From NCBI RefSeq assembly GCF_058153355.1, contig NZ_CM177019.1: a stretch of 64,000 bases of DNA. The stretch is one strand, 5' to 3'. Of the stretch, positions 63,484 to 64,000 are shown piece after piece (within the stretch, counting starts at the first letter, position 1; each line of letters opens with the position of its first letter). The notes below the pieces were generated by a model. It had not been told where the DNA came from. It worked only from the letters and a program-made list of their open reading frames with translations, and made no database searches. The position numbers and the translations under genes were made by a program.

Positions 63484-64000
63484 AGCGCTTGGCGACGGCG
63501 GAACAAAGCTGATTCGCGACGTAAGAAAGTGGCAGGCTCATATGACGGACCTCTGTAATGCGGTATCCAACCCGCGAATATCAGCGTGATTCACCGTCGG
63601 ATTTACTGCTACGTCGCCCTCAGGGAATTAAACCTAAAAAGAAAATCGTCAAAATTAGAGATTCCGGTTTGACACGGAAAGTCATATCAGCGCTTGGCGA
63701 CGGCGGAACAAAGCTGATTCGCGACGTAAGAAAGTGGCAGGCTCATATGACGGACCTCTGTAATGCGGTATCCAACCCGCGAATATCAGCGTGATTCACC
63801 GTCGGATTTACTGCTACGTCGCCCTCAGGGAATTAAACCTAAAAAGAAAATCGTCAAAATTAGAGATTCCGGTTTGACACGGAAAGTCATATCAGCGCTT
63901 GGCGACGGCGGAACAAAGCTGATTCGCGACGTAAGAAAGTGGCAGGCTCATATGACGGACCTCTGTAATGCGGTATCCAACCCGCGAATATCAGCGTGAT
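63484..64000. repeat. tandem direct repeats, 205-bp unit, 2.5 or more copies (array runs off the window)
   Basis: Unit starts at 63486, 63691 and 63896 are identical. The identical 78-aa ORFs at 63558 and 63763 in the track are just the period. Each unit contains inverted segments ggcgacg..cgtcgcc and gattcgcg..cgcgaat. Confidence 0.85.

What the first reader, a model, noticed from the sequence alone, without database searches (positions are those of the whole stretch)
63484..64000. Perfect 205-bp tandem repeats at the window edge
At least 2.5 identical units follow. Each unit has internal inverted segments (ggcgacg/cgtcgcc; gattcgcg/cgcgaat) and no credible coding. They are not a CRISPR array (no spacers), not REP, and not typical iterons (far too long). 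Candidate explanations are a satellite cis replication region, a multimerised IS target or attachment sequence, or an assembly artefact of a collapsed or expanded repeat.
Basis: seen in the sequence. Interest (0 to 1): 0.55.

Follow-up and report, generated by a model that had tools for sequence, protein, structure and literature searches.

The report
Multiplied guide-RNA end of ISSso6
The 205-bp repeats are extra copies of the right end and most of the guide-RNA gene of a known RNA-guided insertion sequence (ISSso6), probably made when the element's recombinase acted on its own guide-coding DNA, which resembles its target.

Summary
In detail: 63484-64000 holds 2.5 identical 205-bp units. They are the 3' end of ISSso6, an IS1111-type element (62169-63688). 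Each unit carries a 5'-truncated copy of its seekRNA/bridge-RNA gene plus the right end.

Empty sites show the target is GTA-AG-CG, normally the tip of IS66-family inverted repeats, with an AG crossover core.

Comparison with 51 Burkholderiaceae relatives defines a 189-nt RNA (63440-63628). It has covarying stems and two naturally reprogrammed guide strands.

The array's internal breakpoint (CACGTT-AG-CGCT) lies inside the right-target guide. Because AGCGCT is a palindrome, this DNA mimics the target, and it is the best pseudo-target in the element.

The same junction recurs at five or more other sites in independent E. coli assemblies (2-4 units). Single-unit alleles exist at four of those sites.

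Best explanation (about 0.6): the element's own recombinase joined its right end to this internal site, and homologous recombination then changed the copy number. Slippage at microhomology is the main rival.

The array is not a replication region, a CRISPR array or an assembly artefact. It is a new structural variant of a known element, of moderate interest.

The parts
62169..63688 (+). Canonical ISSso6 copy (1520 bp, IS1111 group of the IS110 family), written AGGCAGT-[sTIR]...[sTIR]-ATC. It is inserted in the target GTA^AGCG of a prophage primase gene.
   Evidence: Boundaries come from comparing insertions at different sites and two empty sites. Records annotate it as 'IS110-like element ISSso6 family transposase'.
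62296..63423 (+). Transposase gene (375 aa as annotated elsewhere; the longest ORF starts at 62248 and gives 391 aa).
   Evidence: Pfam PF01548 DEDD_Tnp_IS110 (2.6e-11) and PF02371 Transposase_20 (8.2e-24). The exact protein occurs on at least 697 contigs.
62176..62188 (+). Left subterminal inverted repeat ATGACTTTCCGTG. It is preceded by the 7-bp extension AGGCAGT (62169-62175).
   Evidence: It is the only left-type sTIR in the window.
63440..63628 (+). Full-length seekRNA/bridge-RNA gene (189 nt). Helices: P1 63440-60/63608-28, P2 63461-3/63546-8, P3 63470-3/63536-9, P4 63477-80/63529-32, P5 63492-9/63508-17, P6 63560-3/63572-5, P7 63587-90/63596-9.
   Evidence: RNAalifold on 52 sequences. 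Ten pairs carry double changes, against 4.7+/-1.0 in shuffles and 2-3 when partners are slid. The covariance model scores it 200.3 bits over model positions 1-189. MFE z-score is -4.15. No Rfam family matches.
63481..63489 (+). Right-target ('top-strand') guide GUUAGCGCU. It pairs with the target AG-CGCTAAC. The DNA reads GTT-AG-CGCT and so mimics the target GTA-AG-CG(C/T)T. The array's internal breakpoint (AG at 63484-63485) lies here.
   Evidence: In 56 relatives the reverse complement of this hypervariable segment matches each element's own core plus right flank at a fixed register (mean run 5.2 nt vs 2.8 nt shuffled). It is the top-scoring target-like site of 3002 positions in the element.
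63520..63525 (+). Left-target ('bottom-strand') guide CGUAAG, identical to the target's left arm plus the AG core.
   Evidence: In 13 relatives this segment equals the element's own left flank plus core at a fixed register (mean run 6.0 nt vs 3.7 nt).
63578..63586 (+). Conserved segment ATATCAGCG, identical to the right end plus flank (a donor-side guide candidate). It is the site used by the 108-bp duplication in a Paraburkholderia relative, but it is not used in ISSso6.
   Evidence: Alignment; L096; no 108-type junction in E. coli.
63484..64000 (+). Tandem array of the 205-bp module (AG-CGCTTGG...GTCATATC): unit 1 63484-63688 (part of the canonical element), unit 2 63689-63893, unit 3 63894-64000 (cut by the window edge).
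63673..63685 (+). Right subterminal inverted repeat CACGGAAAGTCAT of unit 1. It is followed by ATC and the AG core (63689-63690). A second copy lies at 63878-63890.
   Evidence: An outward-facing TTGACA at 63667-63672 would form TTGACA-N17-CAGTAT at a circle junction, but not at a unit junction.
63664..63812 (+). 5'-truncated RNA-gene copy in unit 2. It lacks the 5' arm of P1 and has mismatched P3 and P4. A third copy at 63869-63999 is cut by the window edge.
   Evidence: Covariance model scores: 93.6 bits (model positions 22-166) and 66.9 bits (22-158). The equivalent junction-centred RNA folds no better than shuffles (z = -0.01).
61149..62170 (+). 5' part of a D5_N primase gene of a P4-like satellite prophage, interrupted at GTA-AG (62166-62170).
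   Evidence: The uninterrupted gene in FDAARGOS_943 reads ...ACAGTAAGCGCTGAG....
58000..60468 (+). IS66-family element with intact GTAAGCG.../...CGCTTAC termini. These are unoccupied examples of ISSso6's natural target (context only, not part of the array).

Best explanation
The array is a structural variant of the insertion sequence ISSso6. The element's last 205 bp are repeated head to tail. Each repeat holds most of the seekRNA/bridge-RNA gene plus the right end.

ISSso6 inserts at GTA-AG-CG, normally the tip of IS66-family inverted repeats. Insertion is guided by two short strands of an internal loop in its own downstream RNA, and strand exchange occurs at an AG core.

The target's centre, AGCGCT, is a palindrome. 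As a result, the DNA that encodes the right-target guide (GTT-AG-CGCT, 63481-63489) looks like the target itself, in the same orientation.

I infer that the element's RNA-guided recombinase joined the right-end crossover point (…ATATC-AG) to this internal pseudo-target. That created the junction …GTCATATC-AG-CGCTTGG… and duplicated everything between the two sites. The route could be sister-chromatid exchange, reintegration of a small module circle, or nested self-insertion followed by deletion.

Once two copies exist, homologous recombination between the perfect 205-bp repeats raises or lowers the number. The enlarged element can probably still transpose from its outermost end.

Shown here: the identity of the unit, the target and core, the RNA structure and guides, the position of the breakpoint, recurrence of the junction, and copy-number polymorphism.

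Inferred: that the recombinase made the first joint, and by which route. The extra RNA copies lack the 5' half of the scaffold and are probably inert by-products.
For: 1. The unit is the terminal 205 bp of ISSso6. The normal element has one unit.

2. Empty sites give the target GTAAGCG and a shared AG. Seven of 13 distinct right flanks are IS66-family ends.

3. Both guides are defined by natural reprogramming in relatives. They sit in an internal loop between covarying stems.

4. The internal breakpoint is the best target-like site of 3002 positions in the element: 7.96 bits, against 3.1 for the next independent site. It matches the guides 5/6 and 6/9, which is the same as bona fide sites such as SopA or pINV.

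5. The same junction occurs at five or more other sites with 2-4 units: L004-L011 and L019. Single-unit alleles exist at the primase, tkt, speC and SopA sites.

6. Four other rearrangements share the exact RE-AG breakpoint:
- a 161-bp duplication with only AG in common (L020/L107);
- two 7-nt flank deletions running from AG to the next AG (L008, L022);
- a 108-bp duplication in a Paraburkholderia relative, at the RE-identical segment.

7. A 9-nt repeat of the end (ATATCAGCG) lies only 108 bp away, and slippage should prefer it. It is never used among about 160 E. coli copies.

8. One genome (GCA_031665325.1) carries both the 205-bp and the 161-bp types.

9. Precedents in the literature:
- half-match recombination and single-strand copy-out in IS621 (bioRxiv 10.64898/2026.08.31.748434);
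- transposase-dependent module circles at an AG, and tandem ssr9 copies, in ISPpu9 (PMC12288879);
- IS1111 seekRNA layout, with the top-strand match 5' of the bottom-strand match (PMC11187229).
Against: - No experiment or read-level data here shows the recombinase making this joint.
- Guide-coding DNA necessarily shares short homology with the end or flank (AGCG, or AGCGCT at this locus). Microhomology-driven slippage therefore predicts the same breakpoint.
- The nested self-insertion intermediate (pseudo-target left half joined to the left end) was not found in 5426 E. coli genomes, PLSDB plasmids or JGI metagenomes.
- Element bodies are too similar (0-3 SNPs) to tell recurrent origin from a single origin followed by transposition of the variant.
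- The internal site of the 161-bp event is not target-like (guide matches 4/6 and 4/9).
- Arrays are rare: 3 of 108 E. coli records that carry the element. The junction ORF is on about 5-9 contigs, against 697 or more for the transposase. Only 1 of 80 relatives' loci shows an analogous array.
Confidence: 0.6

Rival explanations
1. Replication slippage or template switching at the short direct repeat AGCG (AGCGCT at this locus) created the first duplication without any help from the transposase. RecA-dependent unequal exchange then changed the copy number. The duplicated variant spread to other sites by ordinary transposition from its outermost right end.
For: - There are 4-6 nt of identity at the two breakpoints here, and 8 nt in the Paraburkholderia case.
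- Units are perfectly identical, and copy number varies at a single site.
- No SNP separates array-bearing from normal copies, so a single origin is not excluded.
- Arrays are rare.
Against: - The element holds a longer (9 nt) and closer (108 bp) repeat of its end that slippage should favour. No such junction exists among about 160 E. coli copies.
- Of five AGCG sites in the element, the one used is the best pseudo-target.
- The 161-bp event shares only 2 nt.
- Five rearrangement types in all (205-bp, 161-bp and 108-bp duplications, and two 7-nt deletions) have one breakpoint exactly at the inferred cleavage point RE-AG.
- Two different duplication types occur in one genome.
Confidence: 0.25
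2. The array is selected for a function. Extra right ends and extra (truncated or variant) guide RNAs would modulate transposition, for example as alternative ends, as decoy RNAs that titrate transposase, or as a variant guide (AUCAGCGCU) with shifted specificity.
For: - Each internal right end is followed by AG-CGCT, which matches the right-target guide 6/9, as well as real flanks do. Inner ends could therefore serve as ends.
- Extra units keep both guide strands and the whole donor-side region.
- A truncated target-loop RNA has a role in another IS110 element, according to the abstract of bioRxiv 10.1101/2025.10.25.684509.
Against: - Extra copies lack the 5' arms of P1-P4 and fold no better than shuffled sequence.
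- There is no promoter at the unit junction.
- Arrays are rare, variable and perfectly identical, which indicates recent, unstable events rather than a maintained trait.
- In the pINV copies the array sits on an element whose transposase gene is already disrupted by IS600.
Confidence: 0.08
3. Assembly artefact: a single unit was expanded by the assembler.
For: The repeat is perfect and the window ends inside it. The source assembly and its reads cannot be inspected. Short-read contigs with the same insertion break at the IS.
Against: The identical junction occurs in independent assemblies from different laboratories and at different loci, with 2 or 4 units each bounded by unique flanks. These are L004-L006 (pINV plasmids from Thailand and the UK), L007-L009 (contigs of 3.9-4.6 Mb), L010-L011 (short draft contigs of 5.0 and 2.8 kb) and L019.
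Confidence: 0.04

Closest known systems
ISSso6 (IS110 family, IS1111 group), as annotated in Shigella and E. coli genomes
   Same: The window copy is at least 99% identical over the whole element. It has the same transposase, ends and non-coding region.
   Different: The canonical element is 1520 bp with one 205-bp terminal module. Here the module is present at least 2.5 times. I found no description of ISSso6's target, guide RNA or arrays in the searchable literature.
ISEc11 and its seekRNA (Siddiquee et al. 2024, PMC11187229)
   Same: Both are IS1111-type: DEDD transposase, subterminal inverted repeats with 7-bp and 3-bp extensions, and a downstream non-coding region that encodes the guide RNA. 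The top-strand match lies 5' of the bottom-strand match and the two overlap in the target. There is no target duplication, and a junction promoter is predicted.
   Different: It is a different element (1443 bp, 339-aa transposase) with a different target (GTGAAAATACTG). No tandem multiplication of its RNA module was reported there.
ISPpu9 with the ssr9 / MITEPpu9 module (PMC12288879)
   Same: A small RNA module downstream of an IS110-family transposase gene occurs in tandem in some strains. Transposase-dependent circles form by recombination at an AG dinucleotide.
   Different: The ssr9 module carries its own left-end-like and right-end-like boxes, so it is MITE-like. It is not needed for transposition, and ISPpu9's bridge RNA lies upstream. 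The ISSso6 unit has no left-end repeat, it is part of the guide-RNA gene itself, and its 5' boundary is a target mimic, not an end mimic.
Half-match recombination of IS621 bridge recombinase (bioRxiv 10.64898/2026.08.31.748434)
   Same: In that system, recombination occurs at sites that match the core plus only one arm of a guide loop. This accounts for off-target joints. It gives a mechanism for RE-AG joining to partially matching internal sites.
   Different: It was shown for an IS110-group element in cell-free reactions and in editing data. It was not shown for an IS1111-group element or for self-recombination within the element.
IS4321/IS5075 (IS1111 group), which target the terminal inverted repeats of Tn21-family transposons
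   Same: An IS1111-group element whose natural target is the end of another transposable element. This resemblance is recalled from my own knowledge of the family.
   Different: Here the target is the GTAAGCG tip of IS66-family inverted repeats.

Membership tests
IS1111 group of the IS110 family | DEDD (RuvC-like) transposase with the IS110-type C-terminal domain | tested here: met
   PF01548 (2.6e-11) and PF02371 (8.2e-24) on the 391-aa ORF.
IS1111 group of the IS110 family | Subterminal inverted repeats of 11-13 bp, with terminal extensions of 7 bp on the left and 3 bp on the right (PMC11187229) | tested here: met
   A perfect 13-bp sTIR, ATGACTTTCCGTG / CACGGAAAGTCAT. The extensions are AGGCAGT (7 bp) and ATC (3 bp) once the AG core is assigned to the left end.
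IS1111 group of the IS110 family | Long non-coding region downstream of tnp that encodes a seekRNA, with the top-strand complement 5' of the bottom-strand complement and the two overlapping in the target | tested here: met
   The non-coding region is 269 bp. The T guide is at 63481-89 and the B guide at 63520-25. They overlap at AAG of the target. Both are confirmed by natural reprogramming in relatives and lie in a covarying scaffold.
IS1111 group of the IS110 family | Sequence-specific insertion without target-site duplication | tested here: met
   Eleven or more distinct sites share (G/A)TA-AG-CG. The occupied and empty primase sites differ only by the element.
IS1111 group of the IS110 family | Circular intermediate with a junction promoter | not testable with these tools
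   Prediction only: TTGACA-17 nt-CAGTAT would form at RE-AG-LE.
Bridge RNA (IS621-type, two-loop) | A target-binding internal loop with guides for both target arms and the core | tested here: met
   The internal loop between P4 and P5 carries both reprogrammed guides.
Bridge RNA (IS621-type, two-loop) | A donor-binding loop whose guides match the element's left and right ends | tested here: inconclusive
   ATATCAG (63578-84) equals the right end, and UACUGC (63604-09) is complementary to the left end's GCAGTA. Both are nearly invariant, however, and left-end variants (TCAGAATGAT) keep the same RNA segment. There is therefore no covariation support.
MITE-like module (as MITEPpu9/ssr9 of ISPpu9) | Module bounded by both a left-end-like and a right-end-like sequence, so that it can be excised by itself | tested here: not met
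   The unit has the right sTIR only. The single left-type sTIR in the window is at 62176. No solo units were found away from ISSso6.
CRISPR array | Short repeats separated by unique spacers | tested here: not met
   The 205-bp units are contiguous and 100% identical, with no spacers.
Iterons / plasmid or satellite replication region | Short (about 17-22 bp) repeated binding sites next to a rep gene or origin | tested here: not met
   The unit is 205 bp and is the end of an IS. The neighbouring gene is a transposase, and the array occurs at unrelated chromosomal and plasmid sites.

The most novel reading that the evidence does not exclude
Guide-coding DNA is an intrinsic self-target of RNA-guided IS110/IS1111 recombinases. 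The resulting arrays would then be more than scars: they would build multi-copy right-end and guide modules that change the element's behaviour. Possible effects are alternative right ends, decoy RNAs that restrain transposition, or junction-born variant guides (AUCAGCGCU instead of GUUAGCGCU) that shift target choice. This would be a natural route by which such elements diversify or self-regulate.
Probability: 0.1. Interest if true: 0.7.

Novelty: new variant of a known kind. Interest (0 to 1): 0.5.

Why it matters
Bridge and seekRNA recombinases are being developed as programmable genome editors, and their off-target rules are under active study. These arrays appear to be natural footprints of such an enzyme recombining with the DNA that encodes its own guide, which happens here because the target is palindromic.

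If that is confirmed, two things follow:
- It would be in vivo evidence, in the IS1111 group, for partial-match recombination anchored at the element's right end.
- It would give a practical design rule: avoid palindromic targets, because the guide template itself then becomes a target.

The work also supplies the target of ISSso6 (the tips of IS66-family elements) and a covariation-supported 189-nt RNA model for ISSso6. I found neither in the literature available here, and the RNA has no Rfam match.

For genome annotation, it explains a spurious 'uncharacterised protein' gene call and a source of assembly breaks in Shigella and EIEC genomes.

Tried and rejected
- **Rfam scan** of 61900-64000 at E<=1: no family.
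- **Nested self-insertion intermediate** (junction ...CCCACGTT-AG-GCAGTATGAC...): no contiguous match in E. coli complete genomes, PLSDB plasmids or JGI metagenomes. That route is unsupported but not excluded, because Shigella chromosomes could not be searched by similarity.
- **Tandem junction** in GTDB species representatives and JGI metagenomes: none.
- **Recovering the whole array:** an exact look-up of the IS-truncated primase ORF returned only short-read contigs that end at the IS.
- **SNP test** for one origin versus many: uninformative, with 12 variable columns and none diagnostic.
- **Preprint not retrievable:** 'Canonically minimal RNA-guided insertion sequences expand into large elements...' (10.64898/2026.08.14.744561) may describe related expansions, but it could not be fetched.
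- **Readings rejected:** CRISPR array, iterons or replication region, and REP. The unit is the end of an IS.
- **MITE-like autonomous module rejected:** the unit has no left-end repeat.
- **The 78-aa junction ORF as a gene rejected:** no domain, it exists only in arrays, and the 205-nt period shifts the reading frame at each unit.
- **Junction promoter between units rejected:** TTGACA-N17-GCTTGG.

Full report
**1. The observation.** Tandem Repeats Finder reports a single large array in the window, at 63484-64000: period 205, 2.5 copies, 100% identity and no indels. The sequence itself shows the same. The window ends inside the third unit, so the copy number is at least 2.52. The only ORF is a 78-aa frame that exists because it reads across the unit junction, and it has no Pfam match.

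**2. What the unit is.** A gene ends 60 bp upstream of the array, at 63423. It encodes a DEDD/IS110-type transposase (PF01548 and PF02371). Public records with at least 99% identical DNA annotate it as 'IS110-like element ISSso6 family transposase'. In almost all records the element has a single copy of the 205-bp unit. The unit is simply the last 205 bp of the element.

Here the element interrupts a D5_N primase gene of a P4-like satellite prophage. E. coli VL7S7 has the same insertion with one unit.

**3. Ends, target and crossover point.** I compared insertions at different sites with two empty sites.
- The uninterrupted primase reads ...ACA GTAAGCG CTGAG....
- The occupied site reads ...GTA-AG-GCAGTATGAC...[IS]...GTCATATC-AG-CG CTGAG....

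There is therefore no target duplication. The target is GTA-AG-CG, and target and element share the dinucleotide AG, which I take to be the crossover core. ISPpu9 uses an AG in the same way (PMC12288879).

Written AGGCAGT-[13-bp sTIR]...[13-bp sTIR]-ATC, the 1520-bp element obeys the IS1111 rule of 7-bp and 3-bp terminal extensions (PMC11187229).

Seven of 13 distinct right flanks are the tips of IS66-family elements (GTAAG^CGTACAGCC..., ^CGTTAACGGAG..., ^CGTAAACTGAC...), with IS66 genes directly adjacent. The window's own IS66-family copy (58000-60468) has intact GTAAGCG termini. ISSso6 therefore targets the ends of IS66-family elements. The primase, tkt, speC and SopA sites are chance matches to that motif.

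**4. The RNA encoded downstream of the transposase gene.** A scan of species-representative genomes returned 80 relatives (71-81% protein identity), all in Burkholderiaceae and Variovorax. Their downstream regions align to ISSso6 as a conserved scaffold with two hypervariable segments.
- In 56 elements, the reverse complement of the first segment matches that element's own core plus right flank at a fixed register. The mean longest exact run is 5.2 nt, against 2.8 nt with shuffled partners.
- In 13 elements with an identifiable left end, the second segment equals the element's own left flank plus core (6.0 nt against 3.7 nt).

This is the layout described for IS1111 seekRNAs: the top-strand complement lies 5' of the bottom-strand complement, and the two overlap in the target.

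RNAalifold on 52 distinct sequences gives 46 pairs. Ten pairs carry double compensatory changes, against 4.7+/-1.0 in column shuffles (0 of 500 reached the observed value) and 2-3 when partners are slid.

The RNA spans 63440-63628 (189 nt). The two guides (GUUAGCGCU at 63481-89 and CGUAAG at 63520-25) are the two strands of an internal loop closed by P4 and P5. A long outer stem, P1 (63440-60 with 63608-28), encloses everything. A conserved ATATCAG (63578-84) is identical to the right end. No Rfam family matches.

**5. Where the array's breakpoints fall.** Every array ends ...unit-AG-CG-flank, so one breakpoint is the element's right crossover point. The other is AG at 63484-85, inside the right-target guide.

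The guide is complementary to the target, and the centre of the target (AGCGCT) is a palindrome. The guide-coding DNA therefore reads CACGTT-AG-CGCTTGG, against GTA-AG-CG(C/T)T in real sites.
- A weight matrix built from 11 full sites (plus two right-flank-only sites) ranks this position first of 3002 positions on both strands of the element: 7.96 bits, against 3.1 for the next independent site. The runner-up, at 7.2 bits, is the same locus on the other strand.
- Counted against the two guides it scores 5/6 and 6/9, the same as sites actually used, such as SopA, pINV or the L020 site.

**6. Recurrence and polymorphism.** The junction-spanning ORF served as an exact-match probe for other arrays, together with similarity searches.

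| Site | Units seen in arrays | Single-unit allele at the same site |
|---|---|---|
| pINV plasmids, downstream of virF (three EIEC strains from Thailand and the UK: L004-L006; and draft contig L011) | 2 | none with the same right flank (L001, also next to virF, has 1 unit but a different right flank) |
| SopA-family gene (L007) | 4 | VL7S7 |
| tkt (L008) | 2 | L018 |
| Primase site (L009; this window) | 2; at least 2.5 | L003 |
| speC, ornithine decarboxylase (L019) | 2 | L015, L023 |
| Chromosomal IS66 end (L010) | 2 | not seen |

All units are identical, apart from one mismatch in L005. This rules out a one-off assembly error and shows that copy number changes in place.

Arrays are rare. 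A contiguous junction occurs in 3 of 108 E. coli records that carry the element. The junction ORF is on about 5-9 contigs, while the exact transposase sequence is on at least 697.

**7. Other rearrangements anchored at RE-AG.**
- L020, and the same right-hand locus in FDAARGOS_944 (L107), carry a 161-bp duplication. RE-AG is joined to ...GAA-AG|TGGCAGG, 4 nt 3' of the left-target guide core. Only AG is shared.
- L008 and L022 each lack 7 nt of right flank, running from the core AG to the next AG.
- A Paraburkholderia domus relative (L096) has a perfect 108-bp duplication. Its internal site is the ATATCAG segment identical to the right end.

So three different duplications, in two elements, join the right crossover point to a site at or within 4 nt of a guide-type segment of the element's own RNA gene.

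**8. Mechanism.** The best-supported reading is that the element's RNA-guided recombinase joined RE-AG to the internal pseudo-target. The perfect 205-bp repeats then expanded and contracted by homologous recombination.

Supporting literature:
- IS621 recombines at sites that match the core plus a single guide arm, and it excises by single-strand copy-out (bioRxiv 10.64898/2026.08.31.748434).
- ISPpu9 forms transposase-dependent circles of a downstream RNA module at an AG, and that module is tandem in some strains.

The route is unresolved. It could be sister-chromatid exchange, reintegration of a module circle, or nested self-insertion (body-body-module-module) followed by loss of the unstable 1.3-kb duplication. 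The junction diagnostic of the last route was not found.

The main rival is replication slippage at the AGCG(CT) microhomology. This rival is real, because guide-coding DNA must share short identity with the end or flank. Three observations count against it:
- The element holds a longer and closer repeat of its end (ATATCAGCG, 9 nt, 108 bp away) that is never used in about 160 E. coli copies.
- The 161-bp event shares only 2 nt.
- Two duplication types coexist in one genome.

Element bodies differ by only 0-3 SNPs, so recurrent origin cannot be separated from one origin followed by transposition of the variant.

**9. What the extra units contain.** The covariance model scores the authentic RNA gene at 200.3 bits over all 189 positions. 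The copies in units 2 and 3 score 93.6 and 66.9 bits over positions 22-166 and 22-158. They lack P1 and have mismatched P3 and P4.

The authentic region folds far better than shuffled sequence (z = -4.15). A junction-centred equivalent does not (z = -0.01). The unit junction has the outward TTGACA of the right end but no -10 element, whereas a circle junction would give TTGACA-N17-CAGTAT.

The extra RNA copies are therefore probably inert. Each inner right end, however, is followed by AG-CGCT, which matches the right-target guide as well as real flanks do. Inner ends may therefore still be usable; this is inference.

**10. Comparison and novelty.** The element is a known one (ISSso6), and it passes every testable criterion for the IS1111 group. 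The donor-side guides remain unproven, because those segments do not vary.

The array is not a MITE-like module, since the unit has no left-end repeat. It is not a CRISPR array and not an iteron set.

Three things appear to be undescribed in the literature I could search:
- the tandem multiplication of the guide-RNA/right-end module, with its breakpoint inside a guide;
- the element's target, the tips of IS66-family elements;
- the covariation-supported RNA model.

One possibly relevant preprint could not be retrieved. I rate this a new variant of a known kind, of moderate interest.

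Noticed in passing
window 58000-60468: An IS66-family element (ORFs at 58075-60438) has intact termini GTAAGCGTCTTATC... and ...CCGCTTAC. These are two unoccupied copies of ISSso6's natural target, 2 kb from the ISSso6 copy.
   Followed up: partly
L008:6337-6350 vs L018:3894-3910 and L012 (tkt); L022:3894-3900 vs L002/L016/L017: Two independent 7-nt deletions of the right flank run exactly from the core AG to the next AG (CGTTAAG lost in tkt, CGTACAG lost in an IS66 end). The E. coli tkt site has two tandem target-like heptamers, GTAAGCG TTAAGCG.
   Followed up: partly
L020:3895-4056 and L107:2549-2710: A second kind of right-end duplication (161 bp) has only AG shared at the joint. 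The two genomes share the right flank but have different left flanks (L107's left flank equals L021's). This indicates homologous exchange between ISSso6 copies.
   Followed up: yes
L096:1455-1669 (Paraburkholderia domus, 1671-bp contig): A relative at 74% protein identity has a perfect 108-bp tandem duplication of its right-end module. The internal breakpoint is at the conserved ATATCAG segment, which is identical to the right end. The contig is short, so an assembly effect cannot be excluded.
   Followed up: partly
L104:2138-2564 (E. coli H8; similar 64-nt matches in about 70 other E. coli records): An ISSso6-like remnant has lost about 196 bp, almost the whole guide-RNA region (element positions 1242 to 1439). 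It keeps the right end and abuts an IS66-family remnant. It is a widespread, presumably immobilised copy.
   Followed up: partly
L024-L103: In the scan of species-representative genomes, all 80 loci returned as relatives of the ISSso6 transposase were from Burkholderiaceae and Variovorax (71-81% identity). They have the same RNA scaffold but different guides. The 205-bp unit also hits Caballeronia and Variovorax plasmids at 80-95% DNA identity. This suggests transfer between beta- and gammaproteobacteria.
   Followed up: no
window 63677-63692 plus the flank seen in L003:5538-5564: At the primase site, the right end and its flank form a near-perfect 22-nt palindrome, GTCATATCAGCG|CTGAGATGAC (one mismatched pair). 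A guide read from a unit junction (GUCAUAUCAGCGCU) would match this flank at 13 of 14 positions. This may be coincidence.
   Followed up: no
window 63558-63794 and 63763-63999: The 78-aa ORF that spans the unit junction is deposited in NCBI as 'Uncharacterised protein [Escherichia coli]' (e.g. STD46148.1). It is a spurious gene call created by the repeat, but it is useful as an exact-match probe for arrays.
   Followed up: yes
window 63662-63679 and 63867-63884 (minus strand): Each right end carries a weak terminator-like hairpin on the minus strand (TTCCGTGTCAAACCGGAA followed by a T-rich run). It could damp transcription entering the element from the right.
   Followed up: no
L004:546-2783: In the pINV copies that carry two units, the ISSso6 transposase gene is itself interrupted by IS600. 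That array therefore sits on a copy that can no longer supply its own transposase.
   Followed up: no
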